Below, piece by piece: positions 32,037 to 64,000 of a stretch of 64,000 bases of DNA. Location: positions 23,936,001-24,000,000 of the forward strand of contig CP086569.2 in NCBI GenBank assembly GCA_009914755.4, read 5' to 3'. The translations under genes and the position numbers were made by a program. Source of the DNA: the human T2T-CHM13v2.0 reference genome, Homo sapiens. The stretch's first letter is position 1; each line of letters starts with the position of its first letter. The notes beneath the pieces were generated by a model. It did not search any database and was not told the origin of the DNA. It was given only the letters and a program-made list of their open reading frames with translations.

Positions 32037-32041
32037 CTTTT

Positions 32042-33864: not shown

Positions 33865-33867
<3 letters not shown>

Positions 33868-33905
<38 letters not shown>

Positions 33906-36385: not shown

Positions 36386-37134
36386 ATATTTAAAATAATG
36401 AAAGTGTAATTAAACAGATAATACAGATACGTTTAAAAGCTACTTATTTATTCCTCAAAAAGGTGAGCTGGTATCAAAAGTTTCAATGTAGGTTGTGTTG
36501 AAATTCAATTGTGTTACTTCAGAAACCTTGTTTTAAACGAAAAGTTGAAATGCATTAAGGCAGCCTTTTGTTTTAAAACGTCTTCCAGGTATCAACATAA
36601 TCAGAGGTAGAAGGATTCTAAGAAACAAATGTAGTTAAGGGAGTGTTTGAGAATTTTAACACTTACTATATCCTTCAAATATCCAATCGTGATGTAAGAC
36701 AGCAGCTCTGTTGTATTAGAGGTAATACTCTTGTTTTATTCCTATTCCTCTTTAAGAGTAATTAATAGCAAAACATTTCGGTTTCTCCTCAACAAATGTT
36801 TTATGGCTAGTAAAGCCAGAGGCATATTCTAGGCAGATACATGCTAATTCTAAAGCCAGTTAATACCGCCATTCCTGGATTATATAATCTATCAACAAGT
36901 AACTGAACACTTATCATTATGTGGACCAGCCACTGTTTCAGCACACAAAAATGTGAGAGACAAAAAGGCACTGTTGCTCCCATGGGAGTTTATAATTGGG
37001 TTAAAAATAAAGTAACAAAACATAAAACATTAATATAAAGAACCATTTAAAAATATCTACAGGCATATATGGCATAGAAAAAAGTCAAGAAAGATGAGGA
37101 AGTATACGTTTCACTAATTCACTTTACTCCATAA

Positions 37135-37170
37135 CCCCTTTTGCTCCCCAACAGGCCACTGCGGTAGCAC
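37135..37170 (-). pseudogene. DAZ: Exon-8-like pseudo-exon in the 3'-most unit (..LPQWPVGEQK). No ATG and no GT donor
   Basis: Minus strand reads ttttttaag|GTGCTACCGCAGTGGCCTGTTGGGGAGCAAAAGGGGttatgg. It keeps a DAZL-like Trp codon (CAGTGGCCT) where the functional DAZ exon 8 has TGC (Cys). Confidence 0.55.
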
Positions 37171-37866
37171 CTTAAAAAAATAAAAAGAAGGAAACCAAAA
37201 CTATTAAAATATTCCTACACATTTTCAAAAACTCATGAGATACACAATATTGAAGCACTTATCATGCTGGCTCATTTGTTATTAAAGTGAAAGAAACAGA
37301 GTAAAAAAAAAAAAAGAAGTACTTTATGTTTCTAATCCCTGATGTTCTTGTTACTTTTATACATAAAACCTCGCCATTTTCCCAATTTTCTGGAGTTGGC
37401 ATTGTGGAAATCTCAAGGATACTAGTTTTTTCAATTTATTACTTATCACCATAGATATGATTATGGGTCACAGATGTAGTCATATCTATGAAAAGAGGCC
37501 CAGAGAACTACTATCATGAAGCAGCAAGCTTAAAATAAAAATATAATTGGAATTCTGTGCTCTAAGAATGGGATGATAAAAAGATGAAAAAGATGAAAAA
37601 ATACACGCTGAAATATAGAAGGGGACAACGAATCTCAGAAAACTGTTTTACAGAAAAGTTATTGCTAAGTATATCCCTGTCAAAATGTTAATTCATTACT
37701 TCTAAATAATACAGAGGGCTTCATTCTAGACCATTGCAAGTGTTTTCCTAAATTTTAGGTACATTTCACTAGTTTAAAATGACACACTATTTGGGAAATT
37801 CATATAAACAAGTTAAAGGCTTCAATAATATCTGAAAACAAATCATTTTACTCCCTCTTCAATTAC

Positions 37867-37938
37867 CTGATAATTACATACAGGCAACTGACACCCAGTG
37901 GTGACCTGACCTGGTGAATTTGGATAAGTAGGATATGT
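37867..37938 (-). pseudogene. DAZ: Exon-7-like copy in the unit downstream of exon 8 (TYPTYPNSPGQVTTGCQLPVCNYQ). Probably not incorporated into mRNA
   Basis: 72 bp, open frame, splice-like flanks tactttcag| and CAG|gtaattg. It sits 3' of the intact exon 8 in gene orientation and is the most diverged copy, including Tyr to Cys changes. Confidence 0.55.
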
Positions 37939-39503
37939 CTGAAAGTAAGTTTACAGAAAGAATGAATATGGTAAAACATCTTTTTAAATTAGAAAAAAAT
38001 ATTATTCCCAAAATAAAAAAAATGAAAAACTTTAAAATATTTATTAATTTTCTATATAAAACAATGCAGAATTCTAAATGAATGAATGACTTCAGGAAGA
38101 AATAAATATTCTCTGTCAAGTGCTAAGCCCCTTTGGGTGGGGCGGGGGAACACACAAATGACAAAGTAGTGACTATTTCACCAGGCAAAGTTCACCTTAC
38201 TGACACTGTGTACTTATGCCCACCCAGAAGTTGTTTCTTACACTGCTGGTAAGGCTCCATTAAGACAGATCTCAATGTAAGTTAAGTTAATACATTTGCT
38301 ATTTCTTTGTCAATATACTTCCAGATAGTTTTGTGTTTGACAATATTACAGGGTAATATGTAGTTCTCCTACAGATGTTATGTTTTTTTTCTGTACTTCA
38401 TTTCGAAAAACTAAGGGCAGTGTACAATCCAAAACTGGAGAAGGACAGTACGATGTCTTATATGTTTCGATAAATACTTATTGTTTGAAAACATATAGGA
38501 AGCAGCATACATGAATACACCCAAATTCAGTAATGGCTCACCGTAAATGTTAGAAACAAGTAGGGCTTTGTCTCTAGCCATTGTTCAGAGAAGAAAAAAG
38601 AAGAAGAGGTATATCCTACACATTTCAAGTACACAGAAAATGTCAATAAATGAGAGACACTGAAGAACTATTTCACTACTATTTTGTTACTTTATTTTCC
38701 ATCAAAGAAAATGTCTTTTAAACTAACACATAAATAAAATGGACTAAGAAGAAAACAGACGTTATTTATCACCAATAAGTGATAGAGTATGTCAAATCCT
38801 ACTTTAAATATCAAAGTAATCAGGATCAGAGAAATTACATGCCAGAAATTCACAGGATTTATAGGTACAGTAAAATAGGTCAGAAATCTATACATTCCAG
38901 ACCGAGAATATATCCCGAAGTCAGCAGTTTATATGAGGAGTCAACTGGAAATCATTGCAAGTAAAGAAGAGCTAGATTAATCGCTATCCTTAAAGAATAA
39001 ACTAGGCAGAAACATTAGAACAGCTGCTTTCAAATGTTTTCAGAACTAGGTATAATGGGGGAAAGAAGTTCAGGTATTTTAGAGGTAATACTCTTTTTTT
39101 ATTCCTATTCTTATTTAAGAGTAATTAACAGCAAAACATTTCTGTTTCTCTTCAACAAATTTTTTGTGGCTGGTAAAACCAGAGGCAGACCCTACGCAGA
39201 TACATGCTAATTCTAAAGTGACATTAATACTATCTTTCTTAGATTACACAGTCTATCAACAAGTAACTGAACACTTATTATGTGGACCAGCCACTCCTTA
39301 AGCACACAAAAACCTGAGAGAGAAAAAGGCACTGTTGCACCCATGGGAGATTGTAACTGGGTTAAAAAGAAAGTAACAAAATGTAACACATTAATATAAA
39401 GAATCATTTAAAATATTTATAAGGCATAAATGATATGGAAAATAATCCAGAAAGAACAGAAGTACATGGTAGGCTAATTCACTTTACCAGAGGTACAACC
39501 TAC

Positions 39504-39538
39504 CTCCTTTGCTCCCCAACAGGGCACTGCGGTGGCAT
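39504..39538 (-). CDS. DAZ: DAZ exon 8 (35 bp). Encodes MPPQCPVGEQR plus two bases of the next codon
   Basis: Minus strand reads ttttttttttaag|ATGCCACCGCAGTGCCCTGTTGGGGAGCAAAGGAG|gtaggttgta. Every other unit's copy of this segment carries a stop or lacks ATG or the GT donor. Confidence 0.85.
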
Positions 39539-40283: not shown

Positions 40284-40355
40284 CTGGTAATTGTATACAT
40301 GGAACTGATATCCAGTGGTGACCTGAACTGCTGAATTTGGATAAGCAGGAAATGC
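40284..40355 (-). CDS. DAZ: DAZ terminal exon 7 copy. Encodes AFPAYPNSAVQVTTGYQFHVYNYQ, the last DAZ repeat before exon 8
   Basis: 72 bp. Acceptor ctttcttttcag|GCATTTCC, donor CAATTACCAG|gtaatgtaag. It lies 745 bp upstream (gene orientation) of the only intact exon 8. Confidence 0.85.
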
Positions 40356-41885: not shown

Positions 41886-41920
41886 TCCCTTTGCTCCCCA
41901 ACAGGCCCCTATGGTGGCAT
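41886..41920 (-). pseudogene. DAZ: Exon-8-like pseudo-exon (ATGCCACCATAG.., premature stop), directly abutting the L1 5' end
   Basis: Minus strand reads ttttttttcaag|ATGCCACCATAGGGGCCTGTTGGGGAGCAAAGGGATTATG. It has TAG at codon 4 and no GT donor. Confidence 0.6.
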
Positions 41921-42846
41921 CTTGAAAAAAAAAGGGGGGTGGGGGAGGAGCCAAGATGGCCGAATAGGAACAGCTCCAGTCTACAGCTCCCAGCGTGAGC
42001 GACGCCGAAGACGGGTGATTTCTGCATTTCCATCTGAGGTACCGGGTTCATCTCACTAGGGAGTGCCAGACAGTGGGCGCAGGTCAGTGGGTGGGCTCAC
42101 CGCGTGCGAGCGGAAGCAGGGCGAGGCATTGCCTCACTTGGGACGCGCAAGCGGTCAGGGAGTTCCCTTCTGAGTCAAAGAAAGGGGTGACGGATGCCAC
42201 CTGGAGAATCGGGTCACTCCCACCCGAATACTGCGCTTTTCCGACGGGCTTAAAAAACGGCACACCACTAGATTATATCCCGCACCTGGCTCGGAGGGTC
42301 CTACGCCCACGCAGTCTCACTGATTGCTAGCACAGCAGTCTGAGATCAAACTGCAAGGCGGCAACGAGGCTGGGGGAGGGGCGCCCGCCATTGCCCAGGC
42401 TTGATTAGGTAAACAAAGCCGCAGGGAAGCTCCAACTGGGTGGAGCCCACCACAGCTCAAGGAGGCCTGCCTGCCTCTGTAGGCTCCACCTCTAGGGGCA
42501 GGGCACAGACAAACAAAAAGACAGCAGTAACCTCTGCAGACTTAAATGACCCTGTCTGACAGCTTTGAAGAGAGCAGTGGTTCTCCCAGCACGCAGCTGG
42601 AGATCTGAGAACGGGCAGACTGCCTCGTCAAGTGGGTCCCTGACCCCTGACCCCCCGAGCAGCCTAACTGGGAGGCACCCCCCAGCAGGGGCACACTGAC
42701 ACCTCACACGGCAGGGTATTCCAACAGACCTGCAGCTGAGGGTCCTCTCAGTTAGAAGGAAAACTAACAAACAGAAAGGACATCCACACCAAAAACCCAT
42801 CTGTACATCACCATCATCAAAGACCAAAAGTAGATAAAACCACAAA

Positions 42847-43868
42847 GAGGGGGAAAAAACAGAACAGAAAAACTGGAAACTCTAAAAAGCAGAGCACCTC
42901 TCCTCCTCCAAAGGAACGCAGTTCCTCACCAGCAACGGAACAAAGCTGGATGGAGAATGACTTTGACGAGCTGAGAGAAGAAGGCTTCAGACGATCAAAT
43001 TACTCTGAGCTACGGGAGGACATTCAAACCAAAGGCAAAGAAGTTGAAAACTTTGGAAAAAAAAATGTAGAAGAATGTATAACTAGAATAACCAATACAG
43101 AGAAGTGCTTAAAGGAGCTGATGGAGCTGAAAACCAAGGCTCAAGAACTACGTGAAGAATGCAGAAGCCTCAGGAGCTGATGCGATCAACTGGAAGAAAG
43201 GGTATCAGCAATGGAAGATGAAATGAATGAAATGAAGTGAGAAGGGAAGTTTGGAGAAAAAAGAATAAAACGAAATGAGCAAAGCCTCCAAGAAATATGG
43301 GACTATGTGAAAAGACCAAATCTACGTCTGCTTGGTGTACCTGAAAGTGATCAGGAGAATGGAACCAAGCTGGAAAACACTCTGCAGGATATTATCCAGG
43401 AGAACTTCCCCAATCTAGCAAGGCAGGCCAACGTTCAGATTCAGGAAATACAGAGAACGCCACAAAGATACTCCTCGAGAAGAGCAACTCCAAGACACAT
43501 AATTGTCAGATTCACCAAAGTTGAAATGAAGGAAAAAATGTTAAGGGCAGCCAGAGAGAAAGGTCGGGTTACCCTCAAAGGGAAGCCCATCAGACTAACA
43601 GTGGATCTCTCGGCAGAAACCCTACAAGCCAGAAGAGAGTGGGGGCCAATATTCAACATTCTTAAAGAAAATAATTTTCAACCCAGAATTTCATATCCAG
43701 CCAAACTAAGCTTCATAAGCGAAGGAGAAATAAAATACTTTACAGACAAGCAAATGCTGAGAGATTTTGTCACCACCAAGCCTGCCTTATAAGAGCTCCT
43801 GAAGGAAGCACTAAACATGGAAAGGAACAACCGGTACCAGCCGCTGCAAAATCATGCCAAAATGTAAA
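42847..43868 (+). pseudogene. L1 ORF1 remnant. The start codon is mutated (AGG where ATG is expected) and an in-frame stop falls at 43178-43180 (CGA to TGA)
   Basis: caaagagggggaaaaaacag aligns to L1HS caaagATGGGGAAAAAACAG. ORF-track pieces 42950..43180 and 43307..43792 belong to one L1 ORF1p split by stops. Confidence 0.85.
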
Positions 43869-43930
43869 GACCATCGAGACTAGGAAGAAACTGCATCAAC
43901 TAACAAGCAAAATAACCAGCTAACATCATA

Positions 43931-47758
<3,828 letters not shown>

Positions 47759-49291
47759 ACAATGAGATCACATGGACACAGGAAGGGATATATCACACTC
47801 TGGGGACTGTTGTGGGGTGGGGGGAGGGGGGAGGGATAGCACTGGGAGATATACCTAATGCTAGATGAGGAGTTAGAGGGTGCAGAGCACCAGCATGGCA
47901 CATGTATACATATGGAACTAACCTGCACAATGTGCACATGGACCCTAAAACTTAAAGCATAATTTTTTAAAAAAAAAGAATTGACTACTTCACCAAAGTT
48001 TACCTTATACTGTGTACTTATTCACACCCAGAAGTTATTTCTTACACTGGTGATAAGGCTCCATTAAGACAGATTGCAATGTAAGTTAAATTAATACATT
48101 TGCAATTTTGCTGTAAGAATATTTCTAGACTGTTTTGTATCAGACAATATTATAGGGTAATATGTAGTTCTATAGATGTTATGGCTTTGTCTGTACTTCA
48201 TTCCAAAAAACTAAGTGCAGTCTATAATCCAATACTGGAGAAGAGGAAGTATAATGTCTTATATGTTTCAATAAATGCTTATTGTTTGAAAACATACAGG
48301 CAGTAGCATACATGAATACACCCAGATTCAGTAATGGCTCACAGTAAATGACAGTAACAAGTAGAGCTTTTCTTCTACCCATTGTTCAGAGAAGGAAAAA
48401 TAAGAGGTATACCATACATGTTTCAAGTACATGGAAAATATCAACAAATTAGAAACACTGCAGAACTATTTCACTATTATTTTGTTACTACATTTTCCAT
48501 CAAAGAAAATGTCTTTTAAGCTAACACATCAATGAAATGAACTAAGAAGAATATAAACGTTATTTATCAACAGTAAGTGATAGAGTATGTCAAACCCTAC
48601 TTTAAATATCAATGTCACCAGGATCAGAGAAATTAGATGCCAGAAACTCAAGCGGTTTATATATATATACTAAATCACATCAGAAATCTACCCATTCCAG
48701 AACCAGAATATATCCAGAAGTCAGCAATTTATATGAGGAGGCATCTGGAAATCATTTCAAATAAAGGATAGCTAGATGAATTGCTAAACTTACGGAAGAA
48801 TAAAGTAGGCAGACACATAAGGAGAGCTGCTTTCATTCACTTTAGGAACTGCTTATACGGGGGAAAGCTGCTCTGGTGATTTGCAGGTAATACTCTCCTT
48901 TACTTCTATTCTTATTTAAGCATAATTAACAGCAAAGCATTTCTGTTTCTCTTCTATAAATTTACTACTGCTGGTAAAGCCAGAGGCAGATTCTATGCAG
49001 CTACATGCTAATTCTAAAGTCACGTGAATATTACCTTTCTTTGATTATATAGTCTATCATTATGTGGAGCTGCCATTGCTTAAGCACATAAAACCCTGAG
49101 GGCAAAAAAGGCACTGTTGCTGCCATGGGAGTTTATACTCGGGTTAACAAGAAAGTAACAACAACAACAACAAACATTAATATAGAGAGTCACTTAAAAA
49201 TATTTATAGGCATATATGACATGGAAAAAAAATCAAGAATGAACAGGAAGTCTATGTTTGGCTAATTCCCTTAACGTCAAGGACAACATAA

Positions 49292-52447: not shown

Positions 52448-52519
52448 CTGATAATTGTATACAGGGAACTGATATCCAGTGGCGACTTGAAATGGTGAAT
52501 TTGGATAAGCAGGAAATGC
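52448..52519 (-). CDS. DAZ: DAZ exon 7 copy. Encodes AFPAYPNSPFQVATGYQFPVYNYQ
   Basis: 72 bp, in frame, flanked by a cag acceptor and a gtaatgt donor on the minus strand. Confidence 0.85.
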
Positions 52520-54048
52520 CTGAAAAGAAAGGTTCCAGAAAAAAATGAATACGGTAAACCATTTTTTTAAAATTAGAAAGAAATATAATTCTGAATATAA
52601 CAAAAATAGGTAAAATATTGTTTTTCTACATACAATAATGCAGAATTCTAAATGAATGACTGACTTTATGAAGAAAGAAAGATTCTATGACAAGTGCTAC
52701 ACTTTGGGAGTGAAGGGGGAACTAATGACAAAAGAATTGACTATTTCACCAAAGTTTACCTTATACTGTGTACTTATTCACACCCAGAAGTTATTTCTTA
52801 CACTGGTGGTAAGGCTCCATTAAGAGAGATTGCAAGGTAAGTTAAATTAATACATTTGCTATTTCCCTGTCAGAATATTTCTAGACTGTTTTGTATCAGA
52901 CAATATTATAGGACAATATATAGTTTGACAGATGTTATGGCTTTGTCTGTACTTCATTACGAAAAACTAAGTGCAGTCTATAATCCAATACTGGACAAGA
53001 GAAAGTATAATGTCTTATATGTTTCAAAAAATTTTTATTATCTGAAAACATACAGGTAGCAGCATACATGAATACACCCAGATTCAGTAATCGCTCACAG
53101 TAAATGACAGAAACAAGTAAGGCTTTTTTTCTAGCCATTGTTCAGAGAAGGAAAAAGAAGAGGTATACCATACATGTTTCAAGTACATGGAAAATATCAC
53201 GAAATTAGAGACAACCGCAGAACTATTTCACTATTATTTTGTTACTACATTTTCCATCAAAGAAAATGTCTTTTAAGCTAACACATCAATGAAATGAACT
53301 AAGAAGAATATAAACGTTATTTATCAACAGTAAGTGATAGAGTATGTCAAACCCTACTTTAAATATCAATGTCACCAGGATCAGAGAAATTAGATGCCAG
53401 AAACTCAAGCGGTTTATATATATATACTAAATCACATCAGAAATCTACCCATTCCAGAACCAGAATATATCCAGAAGTCAGCAATTTATATGAGGAGGCA
53501 TCTGGAAATCATTTCAAATAAAGGATAGCTAGATGAATTGCTAAACTTACGGAAGAATAAAGTAGGCAGACACATAAGGAGAGCTGCTTTCATTCACTTT
53601 AGGAACTGCTTATACGGGGGAAAGCTGCTCTGGTGATTTGCAGGTAATACTCTCCTTTACTTCTATTCTTATTTAAGCATAATTAACAGCAAAGCATTTC
53701 TGTTTCTCTTCTATAAATTTACTACTGCTGGTAAAGCCAGAGGCAGATTCTATGCAGCTACATGCTAATTCTAAAGTCACGTGAATATTACCTTTCTTTG
53801 ATTATATAGTCTATCATTATGTGGAGCTGCCATTGCTTAAGCACATAAAACCCTGAGGGCAAAAAAGGCACTGTTGCTGCCATGGGAGTTTATACTCGGG
53901 TTAACAAGAAAGTAACAACAACAACAACAAACATTAATATAGAGAGTCACTTAAAAATATTTATAGGCATATATGACATGGAAAAAAAATCAAGAATGAA
54001 CAGGAAGTCTATGTTTGGCTAATTCCCTTAACGTCAAGGACAACATAA

Positions 54049-54083
54049 TCCCTTTGCTCCCCAACAGGCCCCTAAGGTGGCAT
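54049..54083 (-). pseudogene. DAZ: Exon-8-like pseudo-exon (copy of 49292-49326, shift 4757)
   Basis: Identical sequence context, with the same TAG stop. Confidence 0.6.
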
Positions 54084-54827
54084 CTTTAAAAAAAAAAAAA
54101 AAAAAAGGAAACCAAAACTATTAAACTATTCCTACATATTTTCAAACACACATGAGAAACACAGTATTGAAGTACTTATTCCGCTGTCTCCTTTTTTATT
54201 ATAATAAAAGTAACAGAAAGGAAAACTTAAGTACTTTATGTTTCTTGTCCATGACATTCTTGTTACTTTAAATTTGAATCTTCACCTTTCTCCAAATTTT
54301 TGGGAGTTGGCAATGTGGAAACCTCAAAAATACTAGCTCTTTCAGTTTATTACCATAGATATAGTTATGGGTCATAGATATACTTGTATCTATGAGAAGA
54401 GATCCTGAGAATGACTACCGTCAAACAGCCAGCTAAAATGAAAATATAATTGGAATTCTGTGCTCTGAAAAGTGGATCATAATTTTATTTCACTCTATCT
54501 CCCTAAAAAAATTCATGAAAGTCAGTTTGGATGTTTCATTCAGCTATTTGACAGCAAAGATGAAAACTATATCCACAAATGAAGAAGGGGACACCAAATC
54601 TCAGAAATCTCTTCTACACAAATGTTATTGCCAAGGATATTCCTGTAAAAATATTACTTCATTACTTCTAAATAAGACAGAGGTCTTCATTCTACACTAA
54701 GTCTTTCCTTAAATTTTAGGGACACTTCACTAGTTAAAAATGACCAACTATTCAGGAAATTTCTATAAACAAGTTAAAGGCCTCAATAATACCTGAAAGC
54801 AAACCATTTTACTACCTCTTACATTAC

Positions 54828-54899
54828 CTGATAATTGTATACAGGCAACTGATATCCAGTGGTGACCTGAACTGGTGAATTTGGATAAGCAGGAAATGC
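54828..54899 (-). CDS. DAZ: DAZ exon 7 copy. Encodes AFPAYPNSPVQVTTGYQLPVYNYQ
   Basis: 72 bp. Acceptor ccttttcag|GCATTTCC, donor CAATTATCAG|gtaatgtaag. Identical to 50071-50142 (shift 4757). Confidence 0.85.
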
Positions 54900-56422
54900 C
54901 TGAAAAGGTTGCAGAAAAAATGAATATGGTAAACCACATTTTAAAATTAGAAAGAAATATAATTCCCAATATAAGAAAAATATTACAAAACGGAAAATAT
55001 CCTTTTTCTACATACAACAATGCAGAATTCCAAATGAATGACTTTATGAGGAAAGAAAGATTCTATGTCAAGTGCTACACTTTGGGTGTGAAGGGGGAAC
55101 AAATGACAAAGAACTGACTACTTCACCAAAATTTACCTTATACTGTGTACTTATTCACACCCAGAAATTATGTCTTACACTGGTGATAAGGTTCCACTAA
55201 GACAGATTGCAATGTAAGGTAAATCAATACATTTGCAATTTCGCTGTAAGAATATTTCCAGACTGTTTTGTATCAGACAATATTGTAGGGTAATATGTAG
55301 TTCTATAGATGTTATGGCTTTGTCTGTATTTCATTCCAAAAAACTAATTGCAGTCTATATTCCAATACTGGAGAATAAAAAGTATAATGTCTGACATGTT
55401 TCAACAAATTCTTATTGTTTGAAAACATACAGGTAGCAGCATACATGAATACACCCAGAATCACTAATGCCTCACAGTAAACGAGAGAAACAAGTAGGGC
55501 TTTTTTTCTAGCCATGGTTCAGAGAAGGAAAAAGAAGAGGTATACCATACATGTTTCAAGTACATGGAAAATATCAACAAATTAGAGACACAGCAGAACG
55601 ATTTCACTATTATTTCATTACTTCATTTTCTGTCAAAGAAAATGTCTTTTAAGCTAACACATCAATGAAATGAACTAAGAAGAAAATAAACGATATTTAT
55701 CAACAGTAAGTGACACACTATGTCAAACCCTACTTTAAATATCAATGTAACCACGATCAGAGAAATTACATGCCAGAAACTCACCGGGTTTATATATATA
55801 TACTAAACCACGTCAGAAATCTGCCCATTCCAGAACCAGAATATATCCAGAAGTCAGCCATTTATATGAGGAGGCATGTGGCAATCATTTCAAATAAAGG
55901 ATAGCTAGATAAACTGCTAAACTTACCGAAGAATAAAGTAGGCAGACACATAAGGAGAGCTGCTTTCATTCACTTTAGGAACTGCTTATAAGGGGGAAAG
56001 CAGCTCCGGTGAGTTGGAGGTAATACTCTCCTTTACTCCTATTCTTATTTAGGCGTCATTAACAGCAAAGCATTTCTGTTTCTCTTCTATAAATTTTCTA
56101 CTGCTGGTAAAGCCAGAGGCATATTCTGTGCAGACACATGCTAATTCTAAAGTCACGTGAATACTCCCTTTCTTTGATTATATAGTCTATCATTATGTAG
56201 ACCTGCCATTGCTTAAGCACATAAAAACCTGAGGACAAAAAAGGCACTGTTGCTGCCATGGGAGTTTATAATCGGGTTAACAAGAAGGAAACAACAACAA
56301 AAAAAACATTAACATAAAAAGTCACTTAAAAATATTTGTAGGCATATATGACATGGAAAAAAATCAAGAATGAACAGGAAGTCTATGTTTGGCTAATTCC
56401 CTTAACGTCAAGGACAACATAA

Positions 56423-56457
56423 TCCCTTTGCTACCCAACAGGCCCCTAAGGTGGAAT
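56423..56457 (-). pseudogene. DAZ: Exon-8-like pseudo-exon (copy of 51666-51700, shift 4757)
   Basis: Plus strand reads ccctttgctacccaacaggcccctaaggtggaat. Confidence 0.6.
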
Positions 56458-57204
56458 CTTAAAAAATCAATCAATAAATAAAAGGAAACCAAAACTATTG
56501 AAGTATTACTACACATTTTCAAAAACACATGAGAAACACAATATTAAAGTACTTATCCTGCTGTCTCCTTTTTTATTGTAATAAAAGTAACAGAAAGGAA
56601 AACTCAAATACTTTATGTTTCTAGTCCATGACATTCTTGTTACTTTTACATTGGAAACTTCAGCTTTCTCCACATTTTCGGGATTTCGCAATGTGGAAAC
56701 CTCAAAGATACTAGCTCTTTCAGTTTATTACCGTAGATATAATTATGGGTCACAGATACACTTGTATCTATGAAAAGAGATCCAGAGCATTACTATCGTC
56801 AAACAGCCAGCTAAAATGAAAATGTAATTGGGATTCTGTGCTCTGAAAAGTGCAGCATAATTTTATTTCAGTCTATCTCCCTAAGAAAATTCATGAAAGA
56901 CACTTTGGACGTTTCATTTAGCTATTTGACAGTAAAGATGAAAACTACATCCAGAAATGAAGAAGAGAACACCAAATCTCAGAAATCTGTTCTACAGAAA
57001 AGTTATTGCCAAGTATATTCCTGTCAAAATACTACCTCATTATTCTAAATAACACAGAGGTCTTCATTCTACACTAAGTGTTTCCTTAAATTTTAGGTAC
57101 AATTCACTAGTTTAAAATGAGCAACTATTCAGGAAATTTGTATGAACAAGTTAAAGGCCTCAATAATACCTAAAAGCAAATCATTTTACTCCCTCTGACA
57201 TTAC

Positions 57205-57276
57205 CTGATAATTGTATACAGGGAACTGATATCCAGTGGCGACTTGAAATGGTGAATTTGGATAAGCAGGAAATGC
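57205..57276 (-). CDS. DAZ: DAZ exon 7 copy. Encodes AFPAYPNSPFQVATGYQFPVYNYQ
   Basis: 72 bp with the same splice-site context as the other copies. Identical to the copies at 52448-52519 and 61985-62056. Confidence 0.85.
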
Positions 57277-58809
57277 CTGAAAAGAAAGGTTCCAGAAAAA
57301 AATGAATACGGTAAACCATTTTTTTAAAATTAGAAAGAAATATAATTCTGAATATAACAAACATAGGTAAAATATTGTTTTTCTACATACAATAATGCAG
57401 AATTCTAAATGAATGACTGACTTTATGAAGAAAGAAAGATTCTATGACAAGTGCTACACTTTGGGAGTGAAGGGGGAACTAATGACAAAAGAATTGACTA
57501 TTTCACCAAAGTTTACCTTATACTGTGTACTTATTCACACCCAGAAGTTATTTCTTACACTGGTGGTAAGGCTCCATTAAGAGAGATTGCAAGGTAAGTT
57601 AAATTAATACATTTGCTATTTCCCTGTCAGAATATTTCTAGACTGTTTTGTATCAGACAATATTATAGGACAATATATAGTTTGACAGATGTTATGGCTT
57701 TGTCTGTACTTCACTACGAAAAACTAAGTGCAGTCTATAATCCAATACTGGACAAGAGAAAGTATAATGTCTTATATATTTCAAAAAATTTTTATTATCT
57801 GAAAACATACAGGTAGCAGCATACATGAATACACCCAGATTCAGTAATCGCTCACAGTAAATGACAGAAACAAGTAAGGCTTTTTTTCTAGCCATTGTTC
57901 AGAGAAGGAAAAAGAAGAGGTATACCATACATGTTTCAAGTACATGGAAAATATCACGAAATTAGAGACAACCGCAGAACTATTTCACTATTATTTTGTT
58001 ACTTCATTTTCCATCAAAGAAAATGTCTTTTAAGCTAACACATAAATAAAACGAACTAAGAAGAATATAAAGGTTAGTTATCAACATTAAGTGATGGAGT
58101 ATGTCAAACCCTACTTTAAATATCAGTGTAACCAGAATCAGAGAAATTAGACGCCAGAAGCTCACGGGGTTTATATATATACTAAACCACATCAGAAATC
58201 TACCCATTCCAGAAGAAGAATATTTCCAGAAGTCAGCAATTTATATGAGGAGGCATCCGGAAATCATTTCAAATAAAGAATAGCTAGATGAACTGCTAAA
58301 CTTACCAAAGAATAAAGTAGGCAGACACATAAGGGGAGCTGCTTTCATTCACTTTAGGAACTGGTTATAAGGGGGAAAGCAGCTCCGGTGATTTGGCGGT
58401 AATACTCTCGTTTACTCCTATTCTCATTTAAGCGTCATTAACAGCAAAGCATTTCTGTTTCTCTTCTATAAATATTCTATTGCTGGTAAAGCCAGAGGCA
58501 GATTCTATGCAGATACATGCTAATTGTAAAGTCACATGAACACTACCTTTCTTTGATTATATAGTCTGTCATTATATGGACCTGCCATTGCTTAACCACA
58601 TAAAAACCTGAGGGCAAAAAAGGCACTCTTGCTCCCATGGGAGTTTATAATCGGGTTAACAAGAAAGTAACAACAACAAAAAAATTAATATAAAGAATCA
58701 CTTAAAAATATTTATAGGCATATATGACATGGAAAAAAATCAAGAATGAACAGGAAATCTATGTTTGGCTAATTCACTTAACGTCAAGGACAACATAATC
58801 CTTTGCTCC

Positions 58810-58842
58810 CCAACAGGACCTTATGGTGGCATCTTAAAAAAA
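58810..58842 (-). pseudogene. DAZ: Exon-8-like pseudo-exon (ATGCCACCATAAGGTCC.., stop)
   Basis: Plus strand reads cctttgctccccaacaggaccttatggtggcat. The reverse complement has TAA at codon 4. Confidence 0.6.
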
Positions 58843-59600
58843 AAAAAGAAAGAAAAAGAAAGAAAAAAAAAGGACACCGAAACTATTATATGTATTCCTA
58901 AACATTTTCAAAAACACATGAGAAATACAACATTGAAGTACTTATCCGGCTGTCTCCTTTTTCATTATAATAAAAGTAACAGAAAGGAAAACTTAAGTAC
59001 TTTATGTTTCTAGTCCATGACATTCTTGTTACTTTTATATTGGAAACTTCACCTTTCTCCAAATTTTCGGGAGTTGGCAACGTGGAAACCTCAAAGATAC
59101 TACCTCTTTCAGTTTCTTACCATAGATGTAATTATGGGTCATAGATATACTTGTATCTATGAAAAGAGATCCAGAGCATTACTATCTTCAAACAGCCAGC
59201 TAAAATGAAAATGTAATTGGGATTCTGTGCTCTGAAAAGTGCAGCATAAATTTATTTCACTCTATCTCCCTAAGAAAATTCATGAAAGTCAGTTTGGATG
59301 TTTCATTCAGCTATTTCACAGTAAAGATGAAAACTGCATCCAGAAATAAAGAAGAGAACACCACATCTCAGAAATCTCTTCTACAGAAAAGTTATTGCCA
59401 AGTATATTCCTCTCAAAATACTACTTCATTACTTCTAAATAAGACAGAGGTCTTCATTCTACACTACTTCTACGTGTTTCCTTAAATTTTAGGTACACTT
59501 CACTAATTTAAAATGACCAGCTATTCAGGAAATTTGTATAAACAAGTTGAATGCCTCAATAATACCTGAAAGTAAATCATTTTACTCCTTCTTACATTAC

Positions 59601-59672
59601 CTGATAATTATATACAGGCAACTGATATCCAGCAGTGACCTGAAATGGTGAACTTGGATAAGCAGGAAATGG
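59601..59672 (-). CDS. DAZ: DAZ exon 7 copy. Encodes PFPAYPSSPFQVTAGYQLPVYNYQ
   Basis: 72 bp. Acceptor ctttcttttcag|CCATTTCC, donor TAATTATCAG|gtaatgtaag. Translation is visible in ORF 59592..59798. Confidence 0.85.
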
Positions 59673-61202
59673 CTGAAAAGAAAGGTTGCAGAAAAAAATG
59701 AATATGGTAAACCACTTTTTAAAATTACAAAGAAACATAATTCCCAATATAACAAAAATATTACAAAAGGTAAAATATCCTTTTTCTACGTACAACAATG
59801 CAGAATTCCAAATGAATGACTGACTTTATGAAGAAAGAAAGATTCTAGGTCAAGTGCTACACTATGGGTGTGAAGGGGGAACAAATGACAAAATTGACTA
59901 CTTCACCAAAGTTTACCTTATACTGTGTACTTATTCACACCCAGACGTTATTTCTTACACTGGTGGTAAGGCTCCATTAAGAGAGATTGCAAGGTAAGTT
60001 AAATTAATACATTTGCAATTTCTCTGTAAGAATATTTCTAGACTGTTTTGTATCAGACAATATTATAGGGTAATATGTAGTTCGACAGATGTTATGGCTT
60101 TGTCTGTACTTCATTACGAAAAACTAAGTGCAGTCTATGATCCAATACTGGAGAAGAGAAAGTATAATGTCTTACATGTTTCAATAAATTCTTATTGTTT
60201 GAAAACATACAGGTAGCAGCATACATGAATACACCCAGAATCAGTGATGCCTCACAGTAAATGACAGAAAAAAGTAGGACTTTTTTTCTAGCCATTGTTC
60301 AGAGAAGGAAAAAGAAGAGGTATACCATACAAGTTTCAAGTACATGGAAAATATCAACAAATTAGAGACACTGCAGAACTATTTCACTATTATTTTGTTA
60401 CTTCATTTTCCGTCAAAGAAAATGTCTTTAAAGCTAACACGTCAATAAAATGAACTAAGAAGAATATAAACGTTATTTATCAACAGTAGGTGACAGAGTA
60501 TGTCAAACCCTACTTTAAATATCAATGTAACCAGGATCAGAGAAATTAGATGCCAGAAGCTCACGGGGTTTACATATATATACTAAACCACATCAGAAAT
60601 CTACCCATTCCAGAACCAGGAAATATCCAGAAGTCAGCAATTTATATGAGGAGGCATCTGGAAATCATTTCAAATAAAGGATAGCTAGATGAACTGCTAA
60701 ACTTACCGAAGAATAAAGTAGGCAGACACATAAGGAGAGCTGCTTTCATTCACTTTAGGAACTGCTTATAAGGGGGAAAGCAGCTCCGGTGATTTGGAGG
60801 TAATACTCTCCTTTACTCCTATTCTTATTTAGGCGTCATTAACAGCAAAGCATTTCTGTTTCTCTTCTATAAATTTTCTACTGCTGGTAAAGCCAGAGGC
60901 ATATTCTATGCAGACACATGCTAATTCTAAAGTCACGTGAATACTCCCTTTCTTTGATTATATAGTCTATCATTATGTAGACCTGCCATTGCTTAAGCAC
61001 ATAAAAACCTGAGGACAAAAAAGGCACTGTTGCTGCCATGGGAGTTTATAATCGGGTTAACAAGAAGGAAACAACAACAAAAAAAACATTAACATAAAAA
61101 GTCACTTAAAAATATTTGTAGGCATATATGACATGGAAAAAAATCAAGAATGAACAGGAAGTCTATGTTTGGCTAATTCCCTTAACGTCAAGGACAACAT
61201 AA

Positions 61203-61237
61203 TCCCTTTGCTACCCAACAGGCCCCTAAGGTGGAAT
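61203..61237 (-). pseudogene. DAZ: Exon-8-like pseudo-exon (copy of 56423-56457, shift 4780)
   Basis: Same sequence with ATT and TAG. Confidence 0.6.
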
Positions 61238-61984
61238 CTTAAAAAATCAATCAATAAATAAAAGGAAACCAAAACTATTGAAGTATTGCTACACATTTTC
61301 AAAAACACATGAGAAACACAATATTAAAGTACTTATCCTGCTGTCTCCTTTTTTATTGTAATAAAAGTAACAGAAAGGAAAACTCAAATACTTTATGTTT
61401 CTAGTCCATGACATTCTTGTTACTTTTACATTGGAAACTTCAGCTCTCTCCACATTTTCGGGATTTCGCAATGTGGAAACCTCAAAGATACTAGCTCTTT
61501 CAGTTTATTACCATAGATATAATTATGGGTCACAGATACACTTGTATCTATGAAAAGAGATCCAGAGCATTACTATCTTCAAACAGCCAGCTAAAATGAA
61601 AATGTAATTGGGATTCTGTGCTCTGAAAAGTGCAGCATAATTTTATTTCAGTCTATCTCCCTAAGAAAATTCATGAAAGACACTTTGGACGTTTCATTTA
61701 GCTATTTGACAGTAAAGATGAAAACTACATCCAGAAATGAAGAAGAGAACACCAAATCTCAGAAATCTGTTCTACAGAAAAGTTATTGCCAAGTATATTC
61801 CTGTCAAAATACTACCTCATTATTCTAAATAACACAGAGGTCTTCATTCTACACTAAGTGTTTCCTTAAATTTTAGGTACAATTCACTAGTTTAAAATGA
61901 GCAACTATTCAGGAAATTTGTATGAACAAGTTAAAGGCCTCAATAATACCTAAAAGCAAATCATTTTACTCCCTCTGACATTAC

Positions 61985-62056
61985 CTGATAATTGTATACA
62001 GGGAACTGATATCCAGTGGCGACTTGAAATGGTGAATTTGGATAAGCAGGAAATGC
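61985..62056 (-). CDS. DAZ: DAZ exon 7 copy (unit 60798-63176). Encodes AFPAYPNSPFQVATGYQFPVYNYQ
   Basis: 72 bp, open in frame. Minus-strand acceptor ...ttcttttcag|GCATTTCC and donor CAATTATCAG|gtaatgt. Identical to the copy at 57205-57276. Confidence 0.85.
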
Positions 62057-63589
62057 CTGAAAAGAAAGGTTCCAGAAAAAAATGAATACGGTAAACCATT
62101 TTTTTAAAATTAGAAAGAAATATAATTCTGAATATAACAAAAATAGGTAAAATATTGTTTTTCTACATACAATAATGCAGAATTCTAAATGAATGACTGA
62201 CTTTATGAAGAAAGAAAGATTCTATGACAAGTGCTACACTTTGGGAGTGAAGGGGGAACTAATGACAAAAGAATTGACTATTTCACCAAAGTTTACCTTA
62301 TACTGTGTACTTATTCACACCCAGAAGTTATTTCTTACACTGGTGGTAAGGCTCCATTAAGAGAGATTGCAAGGTAAGTTAAATTAATACATTTGCTATT
62401 TCCCTGTCAGAATATTTCTAGACTGTTTTGTATCAGACAATATTATAGGACAATATATAGTCTGACAGATGTTATGGCTTTGTCTGTACTTCATTACGAA
62501 AAACTAAGTGCAGTCTATAATCCAATACTGGACAAGAGAAAGTATAATGTCTTATATGTTTCAAAAAATTTTTATTATCTGAAAACATACAGGTAGCAGC
62601 ATACATGAATACACCCAGATTCAGTAATCGCTCACAGTAAATGACAGAAACAAGTAAGGCTTTTTTTCTAGCCATTGTTCAGAGAAGGAAAAAGAAGAGG
62701 TATACCATACATGTTTCAAGTACATGGAAAATATCACGAAATTAGAGACAACCGCAGAACTATTTCACTATTATTTTGTTACTTCATTTTCCATCAAAGA
62801 AAATGTCTTTTAAGCTAACACATAAATAAAACGAACTAAGAAGAATATAAAGGTTAGTTATCAACATTAAGTGATGGAGTATGTCAAACCCTACTTTAAA
62901 TATCAGTGTAACCAGAATCAGAGAAATTAGACGCCAGAAGCTCACGGGGTTTATATATATACTAAACCACATCAGAAATCTACCCATTCCAGAAGAAGAA
63001 TATTTCCAGAAGTCAGCAATTTATATGAGGAGGCATCCGGAAATCATTTCAAATAAAGAATAGCTAGATGAACTGCTAAACTTACCAAAGAATAAAGTAG
63101 GCAGACACATAAGGGGAGCTGCTTTCATTCACTTTAGGAACTGGTTATAAGGGGGAAAGCAGCTCCGGTGATTTGGCGGTAATACTCTCGTTTACTCCTA
63201 TTCTCATTTAAGCGTCATTAACAGCAAAGCATTTCTGTTTCTCTTCTATAAATATTCTATTGCTGGTAAAGCCAGAGGCAGATTCTATGCAGATACATGC
63301 TAATTGTAAAGTCACATGAACACTACCTTTCTTTGATTATATAGTCTGTCATTATATGGACCTGCCATTGCTTAACCACATAAAAACCTGAGGGCAAAAA
63401 AGGCACTCTTGCTCCCATGGGAGTTTATAATCGGGTTAACAAGAAAGTAACAACAACAAAAAAATTAATATAAAGAATCACTTAAAAATATTTATAGGCA
63501 TATATGACATGGAAAAAAATCAAGAATGAACAGGAAATCTATGTTTGGCTAATTCACTTAACGTCAAGGACAACATAATCCTTTGCTCC

Positions 63590-63622
63590 CCAACAGGACC
63601 TTATGGTGGCATCTTAAAAAAA
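63590..63622 (-). pseudogene. DAZ: Exon-8-like pseudo-exon (copy of 58810-58842, shift 4780)
   Basis: Plus strand reads cctttgctccccaacaggaccttatggtggcat. Confidence 0.6.
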
Positions 63623-64000
63623 AAAAAGAAAGAAAAAGAAAGAAAAAAAAAGGACACCGAAAGTATTATATGTATTCCTACACATTTTCAAAAACACATG
63701 AGAAATACAACATTGAAGTACTTATCCGGCTGTCTCCTTTTTCATTATAATAAAAGTAACAGAAAGGAAAACTTAAGTACTTTATGTTTCTAGTCCATGA
63801 CATTCTTGTTACTTTTATATTGGAAACTTCACCTTTCTCCAAATTTTCGGGAGTTGGCAAGGTGGAAACCTCAAAGATACTACCTCTTTCAGTTTCTTAC
63901 CATAGATGTAATTATGGGTCATAGATATACTTGTATCTATGAAAAGAGATCCAGAGCATTACTATCTTCAAACAGCCAGCTAAAATGAAAATGTAATTGG

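What the first reader, a model, noticed from the sequence alone, without database searches (positions are those of the whole stretch)
36700..64000. The array is the DAZ gene 2.4-kb exon 7 repeat cluster (Y chromosome AZFc), 3' half of the gene on the minus strand
Nine ~2.38-kb tandem units each carry a 72-bp segment bounded on the minus strand by a pyrimidine-rich tract plus cag acceptor and a CAG|gtaatg donor. Each is open in the frame that gives AFPAYPNSPVQVTTGYQLPVYNYQ and close variants. This is the 24-aa DAZ repeat, encoded by 72-bp exons in 2.4-kb genomic repeats and unique to the Y-linked DAZ genes; autosomal DAZL has a single copy. Downstream, an intact ATG-containing 35-bp exon 8 (MPPQCPVGEQR) joins exon 10 to give RNLWTEAYKWWYLVCLIQRRD-stop, the DAZ C-terminus I recall. 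This is a well-described locus, not a new system. The window cannot distinguish DAZ1, 2, 3 or 4.
Basis: partly seen in the sequence, partly recalled or inferred. Interest (0 to 1): 0.6.

Follow-up and report, generated by a model that had tools for sequence, protein, structure and literature searches.

The report
Human DAZ gene 3′ half, DAZ3/DAZ4-type

Summary
A ~2.38-kb tandem array fills 36698-64000 on the minus strand. It carries eight (not nine) intact 72-bp exon-7 copies with AG/GT boundaries. One unit lost its exon to a full-length 6-kb L1 (41930-47974), and another unit's exon lies beyond the window edge. Only one exon 8 is intact (39538-39504); eight other copies carry stop codons. Joining exon 8 to exon 10 gives ...MPPQCPVGEQR-RNLWTEAYKWWYLVCLIQRRD-stop.

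The interpretation (Y-linked DAZ) is supported. Only DAZ/DAZL proteins are homologous, and Pfam finds seven Daz repeats (E=5e-87). Twenty-five published human DAZ primers match with 0 mismatches in 572 nt. Fourteen amplicons lie at one constant offset from GRCh38 DAZ3 coordinates. Divergence from the bonobo orthologue is ~1.6%.

The window does discriminate paralogues. sY587, two sequence variants, a 10-bp spacing difference and the absence of 7Y units exclude DAZ1/DAZ2. The array before the L1 (E-F-E-X-E-X, with the DAZ4 allele in the F unit) matches reference DAZ4. The part after the L1 (straight to 7Z, no 7Y) matches reference DAZ3. It is therefore a DAZ3/DAZ4 mosaic of a kind already reported in population assemblies. 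Already known; low interest.

The parts
36698..64000 (-). DAZ exon-7 tandem array of ~2.38-kb units (U0-U9). It runs off the window at its 5' (gene-sense) end and is interrupted by an L1.
   Evidence: Spacings of 2376-2403 bp. Unit map by BLAST against a reference unit. Identity matrix: U4=U6 100%, U7~U9 99.6%, U3~U5 98.3%, neighbours 91-93%, U1 and U0 ~82% to all others.
61985..62056 (-). Exon 7, E-type (AFPAYPNSPFQVATGYQFPVYNYQ)
   Evidence: cag|...CAG|gtaatg. 453-bp 12F/11R amplicon at 61787-62239.
59601..59672 (-). Exon 7, F-type (PFPAYPSSPFQVTAGYQLPVYNYQ)
   Evidence: 467-bp 12F/12R amplicon at 59396-59862. PSV VIII at 59736 reads G in gene sense, the DAZ4 allele.
57205..57276 (-). Exon 7, E-type
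   Evidence: Its unit U6 is 100% identical to U4 over 2377 bp.
54828..54899 (-). Exon 7, X-type (AFPAYPNSPVQVTTGYQLPVYNYQ)
   Evidence: 452-bp 11F/17R amplicon at 54629-55080.
52448..52519 (-). Exon 7, E-type
50071..50142 (-). Exon 7, X-type; the last exon 7 before the L1
   Evidence: Identical to the bonobo exon in the same position next to the L1.
41930..47974 (+). Full-length L1 (called L1PA2 in the literature), antisense to DAZ, inside the exon-7 array. ORF2 is broken. About 1,018 bp of target, including one exon 7, is missing, and there is no target-site duplication.
   Evidence: Pfam: Transposase_22, Tnp_22_dsRBD, Exo_endo_phos, RVT_1. Canonical 5' end GGGGGAGGAGCCAAGATGGCC and a short poly-A; junction registers q1567|q209. 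Same element at the same place in bonobo, 97.8% over 6,027 bp. Absent from one orangutan DAZ copy. 'Internal LINE (L1PA2)' in human DAZ genes: PMC13252187.
40356..41929 (-). Truncated unit U2 (no exon 7). Its pseudo-exon 8 abuts the L1 5' end.
41886..63612 (-). Eight pseudo-exon-8 copies, one per unit, all with in-frame stops. They read MPP*GPVGEQR or IPP*GPVG*QR and start at 63612, 61237, 58832, 56457, 54083, 51700, 49326 and 41920.
   Evidence: The same TAG stop is present in orangutan and bonobo copies.
40284..40355 (-). Exon 7, Z-type (AFPAYPNSAVQVTTGYQFHVYNYQ). It is the only exon 7 after the L1 and the last DAZ repeat of the protein.
   Evidence: 467-bp 15F/11R amplicon at 40079-40545. 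PSV VII at 40108 reads A in gene sense, the DAZ3/4 state.
39504..39538 (-). Exon 8, the only intact copy (35 bp, MPPQCPVGEQR + AG)
   Evidence: ag|ATGCCACCGCAG...AGGAG|gtaggt. The DAZ_18 amplicon at 39341-39740 is 400 bp, so PSV III is TT, the DAZ3/4 state.
37867..37938 (-). Exon-7-like segment downstream of exon 8 (TYPTYPNSPGQVTTGCQLPVCNYQ). It is the most DAZL-like copy and is not in the canonical CDS.
   Evidence: Covered by amplicon DAZ_26, which was designed on Ensembl r84 exons. Including it keeps the frame open and gives the same C-terminal tail.
37140..37174 (-). Exon-8-like segment without ATG (VLPQWPVGEQK), with donor gttatg
   Evidence: Covered by amplicon DAZ_19.
36261..36383 (-). 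Pseudo-exon 9: 41 codons, 73% identical to DAZL exon 9. The 5' part (SYVVPP) and the acceptor are degenerate. Skipping it causes the DAZ-specific frameshift.
   Evidence: tblastn with DAZL, E=2e-16; sequence.
34833..34931 (-). Exon 10 (99 bp). It is read in the DAZ frame as (R)NLWTEAYKWWYLVCLIQRRD with TGA at 34870-34868. The DAZL frame (KSVDRSIQMVVSCLFNPEKR...) is also still open.
29005..30859 (-). Exon 11 / 3' UTR (approximate 3' end). AATAAA signals at 29033 and 29027.
   Evidence: DAZL-frame remnant GKRVHRFRRSLAVFKSV. Amplicons DAZ_21 to DAZ_25 tile 28957-30932. Poly-A signals.
33234..33503 (-). STS sY587 (DAZ-SNV V) in intron 10: 270 bp, DraI fragments 26+48+196 (C allele, CTTAAA), the DAZ3/DAZ4 pattern
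   Evidence: Primers and alleles from PMC6055888 and PMC3402420. In-silico digest.
36444..37102 (-). DAZ-SNV IV amplicon: cut by AluI at 397, so allele B (DAZ1/3/4, not DAZ2)
28270..28704 (-). DAZ-SNV VI / Y-DAZ3 site just downstream of the gene. There is no AflIII site (not the reference DAZ4 state) and no 8-bp deletion (GAAATACA is present at 28510-28517, not the reference DAZ3 state).

Best explanation
The region is the 3' half of a human Y-linked DAZ gene (AZFc region), transcribed from the minus strand.

Layout in the window, gene 5' to 3': exon-7 units (D)-E-F-E-X-E-X, a full-length antisense L1, one truncated unit, exon 7Z, exon 8, a leftover exon-7/8-like pair, pseudo-exon 9, exon 10 with the stop codon, and exon 11 (3' UTR).

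How the gene works (established knowledge plus the papers cited):
- Each 72-bp exon 7 adds one 24-aa DAZ repeat.
- Only the last exon 8 survives; all others carry stops ('pruning').
- Skipping the degenerate exon 9 shifts the frame in exon 10 and gives the DAZ-specific tail RNLWTEAYKWWYLVCLIQRRD.
- The DAZ-repeat domain binds PABPC1, so that mRNAs bound by the N-terminal RRMs (encoded outside this window) are translated in spermatogonia.

How the array evolves: by unequal exchange and conversion between the 2.4-kb units. Alternate units are 98-100% identical.

Which copy: a DAZ3/DAZ4-class gene, not DAZ1/DAZ2. Relative to GRCh38 it is a mosaic. The array before the L1 is laid out as in DAZ4 and carries the DAZ4 allele in the F unit. 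Everything from the L1 to the 3' UTR is laid out as in DAZ3, with no 7Y units. This fits the DAZ3/DAZ4 hybrid copies that population assemblies attribute to recurrent inversion between the two genes.

Shown here: the anatomy, the homology, the marker states, the colinearity, and the age of the L1. Inferred: the splicing pattern, expression, protein function, and the event that produced the mosaic.
For: Anatomy.

Family:
- Only DAZ/DAZL homologues are found.
- Pfam finds the Daz repeat in 7 stretches, E=5.3e-87.
- The chimp DAZ protein H2RB57 ends ...AFPAYPNSAVQVTTGYQFHVYNYQMPPQWPVGEQRRNLWTEAYKWWYLVCLIQRRD, which supports the exon 7Z-8-10 joins.

Human origin:
- 25 non-degenerate published human primers match with 0 mismatches in 572 nt; the bonobo locus has 7 mismatches.
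- 14 of 14 amplicons lie at a constant offset (+24,734,066) from GRCh38 DAZ3 coordinates over 28.5 kb, with identical sizes.
- Substitution divergence from the bonobo orthologue is 1.6% over 16.9 kb. Exon 8 codes C here and W in chimp and bonobo.

Not DAZ1/DAZ2:
- sY587 is uncut by DraI.
- PSV III is TT and PSV VII is A.
- The DAZ_21 to DAZ_20 spacing is 4190 bp, against 4180 bp in DAZ1/2.
- There is no 7Y unit.
- SNV IV excludes DAZ2.

Mosaic:
- The layout before the L1 matches GRCh38 DAZ4 at 6 of 6 amplicons, and DAZ3 at only 4 of 6.
- PSV VIII reads G, the DAZ4 allele.
- After the L1 the array goes straight to 7Z, as in DAZ3. [quoted passage not shown]

Literature:
- Internal L1PA2 and recurrent DAZ3/DAZ4 hybrids: PMC13252187.
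- HG002 DAZ3 has insertions of sequence found only in DAZ1/DAZ4 of GRCh38: PMC10406601.
- The DAZ repeat domain binds PABPC1/CCT3: PMC11304246.
- 8-24 DAZ repeats, polymorphic: PMC2322974.
Against: - No human genome or human DAZ protein could be searched directly. Human DAZ1-4 were not among the protein hits. Identity to a particular assembly is therefore untested.
- The two markers just downstream of the gene fit neither reference DAZ3 (the 8-bp Y-DAZ3 deletion is absent) nor reference DAZ4 (the AflIII site is absent).
- I could not locate a one-mismatch AflIII proto-site at the published cut position, so that marker is weak.
- The 5' half (promoter, RRM exons) is outside the window, so RRM number and intactness of the gene are unknown.
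- Splicing and expression were not tested.
- The exon letters D/E/F/X/Y/Z were assigned by me, by matching amplicon size classes to the DAZ1 order given in the preprint. They were not read from an annotation.
Confidence: 0.9

Rival explanations
1. It is DAZ1 or DAZ2, the other palindrome pair (r1/r2 amplicons).
For: All four genes share the exon types, the L1 and the 3' exons. Most primers match all four copies.
Against: sY587 is uncut by DraI, the DAZ3/4 state. PSV III is TT and PSV VII is A, both DAZ3/4 states. A 10-bp spacing difference places the window with DAZ3/4. DAZ1 has one 7Y unit and DAZ2 six 7Y units after the L1; the window has none. SNV IV excludes DAZ2.
Confidence: 0.03
2. It is an unmodified reference-type DAZ3 (GRCh38 structure B-C-D-E-X-E-X-E-X | L1 | Z).
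For: 14 of 14 amplicons from the 3' UTR to the second E unit coincide with GRCh38 DAZ3 coordinates. There are no 7Y units. The gene lies on the minus strand, as DAZ3 does in GRCh38.
Against: The fifth unit before the L1 is a 467-bp F-type unit where GRCh38 DAZ3 has a 452-bp X-type unit. That unit carries the DAZ4 allele of PSV VIII. The DAZ3-specific 8-bp deletion (the Y-DAZ3 STS) is absent.
Confidence: 0.05
3. It is a DAZ4 that lost all its 7Y units. This is reported in some lineages and attributed to DAZ3-to-DAZ4 conversion. It would not be a DAZ3-position hybrid.
For: The layout before the L1 and PSV VIII are DAZ4-like. The eLife paper reports Y chromosomes in which all five DAZ4 7Y exons are missing.
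Against: The DAZ4-specific AflIII site downstream of the gene is absent. If the window follows the standard chrY orientation, a minus-strand gene sits at the DAZ3 position, but the orientation of the window is unknown. The window cannot separate this reading from the hybrid reading.
Confidence: 0.25
4. It is a DAZ gene of a non-human ape (chimpanzee, bonobo, gorilla).
For: The closest proteins retrievable are from Pan. Bonobo shares the L1 and the overall layout.
Against: Substitution divergence from bonobo is 1.6% with many indels. Exon 8 codes C here against W in both Pan species. The E-type exon is absent from the Pan sequences seen. There are 0 mismatches in 572 nt to human primers, and the window is colinear with GRCh38 coordinates without indels. 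Gorilla was not tested directly.
Confidence: 0.02
5. It is autosomal DAZL (chromosome 3) or a processed or dead DAZ-like pseudogene.
For: Exon 10 keeps the DAZL frame open, and exon-9-like and exon-11-like remnants are recognisable.
Against: DAZL has a single exon 7 and a used exon 9 (PMC2322974). Here there are eight exon-7 copies in 2.4-kb repeats, and exon 9 has lost its 5' part and acceptor. All canonical splice sites and the reading frame are intact through the stop codon. The preprint reports that all four DAZ genes and hybrid copies are expressed.
Confidence: 0.01

Closest known systems
Human DAZ3 (GRCh38 chrY ~24.763-24.815 Mb, minus strand)
   Same: From the 3' UTR through exons 11, 10 and 8, exon 7Z, the L1 and the first four units before the L1 (X-E-X-E), amplicon positions and sizes are identical (14 of 14). 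There are no 7Y units. The DAZ3/4 states of sY587, PSV III and PSV VII are present.
   Different: The window has an F-type unit (with the DAZ4 allele of PSV VIII) where DAZ3 has a third X. It also lacks the DAZ3-specific 8-bp deletion used by the Y-DAZ3 STS.
Human DAZ4 (GRCh38 chrY ~24.832-24.907 Mb, plus strand)
   Same: The layout before the L1 (E-F-E-X-E-X) is identical in position and size at 6 of 6 amplicons. PSV VIII reads G. The 3' spacing (11,122 bp from 7Z to DAZ_25) is the same.
   Different: Reference DAZ4 has five 7Y units between the L1 and 7Z, and an AflIII site downstream of the gene. The window has neither.
DAZ3/DAZ4 hybrid copies in population Y assemblies (PMC13252187); HG002 'DAZ3' (PMC10406601)
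   Same: These are mosaic copies with features of both paralogues. DAZ3 is described as gaining sequence otherwise found only in DAZ1/DAZ4. The exon-7 array is split by an internal L1PA2 into two segments.
   Different: No sequence or per-sample table was available to me, so identity with any catalogued allele is untested.
Bonobo DAZ (T2T chrY CM054483.2, locus L002)
   Same: It has the same gene layout, the same L1 at the same junctions, pseudo-exon 8 copies with the same stop, and the same leftover exon-7-like copy after exon 8. The 3' region is 97.5-98.0% identical.
   Different: It has two exon-7 copies after the L1 instead of one. Exon 8 codes W, not C. The exon-7 subtypes before the L1 differ. 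Exon 10 has WRYL where the window has WWYL.
DAZL (autosomal progenitor)
   Same: Exons 7, 8, 10 and 11 are homologous, and the 24-aa DAZ repeat is shared. The last exon-7/8-like pair in the window is the most DAZL-like copy.
   Different: DAZL has one exon 7 and uses exon 9, so exon 10 is read in another frame (KSVDRSIQTVV...). DAZL has no 2.4-kb array and no L1.

Membership tests
Y-linked DAZ genes | Multiple 72-bp exon-7 copies, each encoding a 24-aa DAZ repeat, in ~2.4-kb genomic tandem units | tested here: met
   Eight copies with a 2376-2403 bp period. Pfam PF18872 in 7 stretches, E=5e-87. Definition from PMC7016774 and PMC2322974.
Y-linked DAZ genes | Exon 8 degenerate in all units but the last ('pruning'), and exon 9 degenerate and skipped, giving a frame-shifted C-terminus in exon 10 | tested here: met
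   One intact exon 8 and eight copies with stops. Pseudo-exon 9 lacks its 5' part and acceptor. The exon 8+10 join gives RNLWTEAYKWWYLVCLIQRRD*, as in the chimp DAZ protein. Actual splicing was not tested.
Y-linked DAZ genes | One to three RRM-encoding blocks (exons 2-6, 10.8-kb repeat) at the 5' end | not testable with these tools
   The 5' half lies beyond base 64000. sY254, sY255, sY581, sY586 and SNV I/II primers are absent from the window, as expected.
Y-linked DAZ genes | Location in AZFc on the human Y chromosome | tested here: met
   Indirect. Published Y-specific STSs (sY587, DAZ-SNV IV, DAZ-SNV VI) amplify in silico with the published sizes. 14 amplicons lie at a constant offset from GRCh38 chrY coordinates. 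No genome alignment was possible.
Y-linked DAZ genes | Internal L1PA2 that divides the exon-7 array into two segments (human DAZ1-4) | tested here: met
   Full-length L1 at 41930-47974. PMC13252187. The subfamily name is taken from the paper and was not tested here.
DAZ3/DAZ4 pair (as opposed to DAZ1/DAZ2) | sY587 uncut by DraI; PSV III TT; PSV VII A; DAZ_21 to DAZ_20 spacing 4190 bp | tested here: met
Reference DAZ3 | No exon 7Y after the L1 | tested here: met
   X to Z distance is 9793 bp, as in GRCh38 DAZ3. No 467-bp Y amplicon lies between the L1 and 7Z.
Reference DAZ3 | No exon 7F; array D-E-X-E-X-E-X before the L1 | tested here: not met
   A 467-bp F-type unit at 59396-59862 is flanked by E units on both sides.
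Reference DAZ3 | Y-DAZ3 STS positive (8-bp deletion downstream of the gene) | tested here: not met
   The window has the undeleted sequence AACTAAT[GAAATACA]AGAGTG at 28503-28533. The STS is polymorphic in populations (PMC2360005).
Reference DAZ4 | Array D-E-F-E-X-E-X before the L1, with PSV VIII = G | tested here: met
   6 of 6 amplicon positions and sizes match, and position 59736 reads G in gene sense. The D unit itself lies beyond the window; U9 is 99.6% identical to the F unit.
Reference DAZ4 | Five 7Y units after the L1; AflIII site in DAZ-SNV VI | tested here: not met
   There are no Y units and no AflIII site in the 435-bp amplicon.

The most novel reading that the evidence does not exclude
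The window could represent a DAZ3/DAZ4 mosaic allele that is not yet individually catalogued. Its combination is a DAZ4-type array before the L1, a DAZ3-type part after the L1 without 7Y, and neither the Y-DAZ3 deletion nor the DAZ4 AflIII site. The leftover exon-7-like segment after exon 8 (37938-37867) could be spliced in without breaking the frame, which would add 24 residues ahead of the normal tail.
Probability: 0.1. Interest if true: 0.2.

Novelty: already known. Interest (0 to 1): 0.12.

Why it matters
DAZ is the main candidate fertility gene of the AZFc deletion interval, and its exon-7 array is one of the most variable coding regions in the human genome. Nothing here is new biology. 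The value of this check is practical:
- It corrects the exon count and adds the L1 that splits the array.
- It shows that a 64-kb window holding only the 3' half carries enough published markers and layout information to exclude DAZ1/DAZ2 and to recognise a DAZ3/DAZ4 mosaic. Such information is needed when interpreting partial AZFc deletions and copy-specific variation.

Tried and rejected
- Tandem Repeats Finder cannot see a 2.4-kb period because its limit is 500. I used the repeat finder and BLAST instead.
- The protein database returned no human DAZ1-4 entry, so no direct human protein comparison was possible.
- The chimpanzee contig carrying DAZ2 ends inside the array and lacks the 3' end. 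Look-ups for chimp DAZ1 and gibbon DAZ found nothing on record.
- From three RFLP markers (SNV IV, V, VI) I first concluded 'DAZ3'. I withdrew this after the Y-DAZ3 STS proved negative and after the layout before the L1 and PSV VIII proved DAZ4-like.
- I could not find a one-mismatch AflIII proto-site at the published cut position in the SNV VI amplicon, so I treat that marker as weak.
- An Rfam scan of the whole window at gathering thresholds found nothing.
- Fernandes et al. 2004 (PMC1181906) is not held. The preprint's per-sample DAZ tables are not held either.
- I did not use the phage, plasmid, E. coli, metagenome or bacterial-genome collections, because they cannot bear on a human Y locus.

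Full report
OBSERVATION. A tandem array with start-to-start spacings of 2376-2403 bp runs from 36698 to the end of the window. Tandem Repeats Finder missed it only because its period limit is 500. On the minus strand I find eight 72-bp segments, all preceded by a pyrimidine tract plus cag. Seven are followed by CAG|gtaatg and one by CAG|gtaatt. All are open in the frame that gives the 24-aa DAZ repeat. The array has ten unit pieces (U0-U9). The exon of U9 lies beyond base 64000. The exon of U2 is gone, because about 1,018 bp of repeat is missing where a 6,045-bp insert sits at 41930-47974. Each unit also holds an exon-8-like segment. Eight of these carry in-frame stops (MPP*GPVGEQR or IPP*GPVG*QR). 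Only the copy at 39538-39504 is intact, with ag|ATG...AGGAG|gtaggt. Exon 10 is 34931-34833.

WHAT IT IS. The conceptual protein finds only DAZ and DAZL proteins among 5.8 billion sequences. It matches Pfam 'Daz repeat' in seven stretches, E=5e-87. The chimpanzee DAZ protein H2RB57 ends with the same last repeat, exon 8 and tail. The only difference is W where the window has C, which supports the inferred exon 7Z-8-10 joins. A tblastn with DAZL maps the rest of the ancestral gene:
- a further exon-7-like and exon-8-like pair downstream of the real exon 8 (37938-37867 and 37174-37140), which is the most DAZL-like copy;
- a pseudo-exon 9 (36383-36261, 73% identical to DAZL over 41 codons, with its 5' part and acceptor lost);
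- exon 10, which still keeps the DAZL frame open;
- exon 11 (from 30859, with poly-A signals at 29033 and 29027).
Skipping exon 9 is what shifts exon 10 into the DAZ-specific frame.

THE INSERT. The 6-kb insert is a full-length L1 on the plus strand, antisense to DAZ. It has the ORF1 RBD and dsRBD domains and the ORF2 endonuclease and reverse transcriptase, with ORF2 broken. It starts with the canonical primate L1 5' end and ends in a short poly-A. The poly-A abuts ...ACAAAA|GAATTGAC, a T-rich site on the opposite strand of the kind L1 endonuclease cuts. The 5' end joins an A-run next to pseudo-exon 8 in a different unit register. There is no target-site duplication, so one exon 7 was lost with the target. 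A 2026 preprint on 142 human Y assemblies describes this 'internal LINE (L1PA2)' as a standard feature that splits the exon-7 array of human DAZ genes into pre-LINE and post-LINE segments (PMC13252187). The same element lies at the same junctions in the bonobo T2T Y (97.8% over 6,027 bp, colinear across both flanks). It is absent from one orangutan DAZ copy whose array is uninterrupted. The insertion therefore dates between those two splits. The stop codon in pseudo-exon 8 is already present in orangutan.

SPECIES. No human genome could be searched, so I used three indirect tests.
- (i) Window 24948-41936 aligns colinearly to the bonobo DAZ 3' end with 270 substitutions in 16,941 positions (1.6%) and many small indels. 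Exon 8 codes W in chimp and bonobo and C here.
- (ii) Twenty-five non-degenerate published human DAZ primers match with 0 mismatches in 572 nt, while the bonobo locus has 7.
- (iii) Fourteen amplicons lie at one constant offset (+24,734,066) from their GRCh38 chrY coordinates over 28.5 kb, with identical sizes.
The sequence is human, or indistinguishable from human by these tests. Gorilla was not tested directly.

WHICH DAZ COPY. Published markers say otherwise.
- sY587 in intron 10 (33234-33503) gives DraI fragments of 26+48+196, the DAZ3/DAZ4 pattern.
- DAZ-SNV IV is cut by AluI, so the copy is not DAZ2.
- From the eLife AZFc re-sequencing paper (PMC8009663, supplements 17, 18, 21): PSV III is TT and PSV VII is A, both DAZ3/4 states. 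The DAZ_21 to DAZ_20 spacing is 4190 bp as in DAZ3/4, not 4180 bp as in DAZ1/2.

I then rebuilt the four GRCh38 arrays from the amplicon coordinates and the DAZ1 exon order given in the preprint (B C D E F E X Y Z):
- DAZ1: ...D E F E X | L1 | Y Z
- DAZ3: ...D E X E X E X | L1 | Z
- DAZ4: ...D E F E X E X | L1 | Y Y Y Y Y Z
- DAZ2: ...E X | L1 | six Y, then Z
The window reads (D) E F E X E X | L1 | Z. [quoted passage not shown] Before the L1 it matches DAZ4 at 6 of 6 amplicon positions and sizes, against 4 of 6 for DAZ3. The F unit carries the DAZ4-specific allele G of PSV VIII.

Just downstream of the gene the window has neither the DAZ3-specific 8-bp deletion (the Y-DAZ3 reverse primer spans that deletion, and the window keeps GAAATACA) nor the DAZ4-specific AflIII site. 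My first call of 'DAZ3' from three RFLPs was therefore too simple and is withdrawn. The copy is a DAZ3/DAZ4-class mosaic that does not exist in GRCh38.

Such mosaics are already reported. The preprint describes recurrent DAZ3/DAZ4 inversions that give copies with features of both genes. The PGR-TK paper notes that HG002 DAZ3 has insertions of sequence found only in DAZ1/DAZ4 of GRCh38 (PMC10406601). The eLife paper reports DAZ4 copies that lost all 7Y exons. The window alone cannot tell a DAZ3-position hybrid from a DAZ4 that lost 7Y.

ARRAY DYNAMICS. Alternate units are nearly identical: U4=U6 100% over 2377 bp, U7~U9 99.6%, U3~U5 98.3%. Neighbouring units differ by 7-9%. The two units around the real exon 8 are only ~82% identical to any other unit. 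This is the pattern expected from recent two-unit (4.76-kb) duplication or conversion inside an older array. It agrees with the reported polymorphism of 8-24 repeats (PMC2322974).

FUNCTION (from the literature, not tested here). DAZ proteins are germ-cell RNA-binding translational activators. The N-terminal RRMs, encoded outside this window, select the mRNAs. The DAZ-repeat region encoded here is necessary and sufficient to bind PABPC1 and CCT3 (PMC11304246).

VERDICT. The locus has been known since the 1990s, and even its mosaic form has been described. Novelty: already known. Interest: low.

Noticed in passing
window 41930-47974 and both junctions; L002 40769-46789; L003: The L1 inside the array removed about 1 kb of target, including one exon 7, and left no target-site duplication. 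It is shared with bonobo and absent from one orangutan DAZ copy. It therefore inserted between those two splits and has been carried in a coding array ever since.
   Followed up: yes
window 37867-37938 and 37140-37174: An exon-7-like and an exon-8-like segment lie downstream of the functional exon 8. They are the most DAZL-like copies (TYPTYPNSPGQ..., and W retained in VLPQWPVGEQK). They are covered by amplicons designed on Ensembl exons. Including the 72-bp segment after exon 8 keeps the frame open and gives the same C-terminal tail.
   Followed up: partly
window 50143-52519 vs 54900-57276: Two non-adjacent 2377-bp units are 100% identical, while each differs by ~8% from the unit between them. 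This points to a very recent 4.76-kb two-unit duplication or conversion.
   Followed up: yes
window 28503-28533: The Y-DAZ3 STS is a deletion-junction primer assay. The window keeps the 8 bp (GAAATACA) that reference DAZ3 lacks. So 'Y-DAZ3 deletion' calls in clinical papers (7.5% of UK men; ~60% in one Indian series) could reflect loss of this small marker rather than loss of the gene.
   Followed up: partly
window 36261-36383: Pseudo-exon 9 still has 41 stop-free codons that are 73% identical to DAZL, although its 5' part and acceptor are lost.
   Followed up: partly
window 3326-6587, 16404-16858, 20666-23903: Older, diverged L1 fragments (67-93% identical to the intact L1) lie on the plus strand downstream of the gene. 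A 72-bp x2 tandem at 23005-23149 lies inside one of them.
   Followed up: no
window 18100-19600: A GC-rich (0.45-0.53), C-skewed block with an (ACT)n run at 19131-19258. It is probably another interspersed repeat and was not identified.
   Followed up: no
window 27031-27109: A 39-bp unit repeated twice (97% match), about 2 kb downstream of the DAZ poly-A site. Not investigated.
   Followed up: no
protein database: Human DAZ1-4 proteins did not appear among the homologues, although chimp, bonobo, orangutan, gibbon and monkey DAZ did. The human identification therefore had to rest on published primers and coordinates.
   Followed up: no
PMC8009663 supplementary file 21: The GRCh38 coordinate given for PSV VIII in DAZ3 (24798136) is out of register with the other copies, which all lie at the 127th base of the amplicon. 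PSV IV and PSV IX list identical coordinates. These look like typing slips in the table.
   Followed up: no
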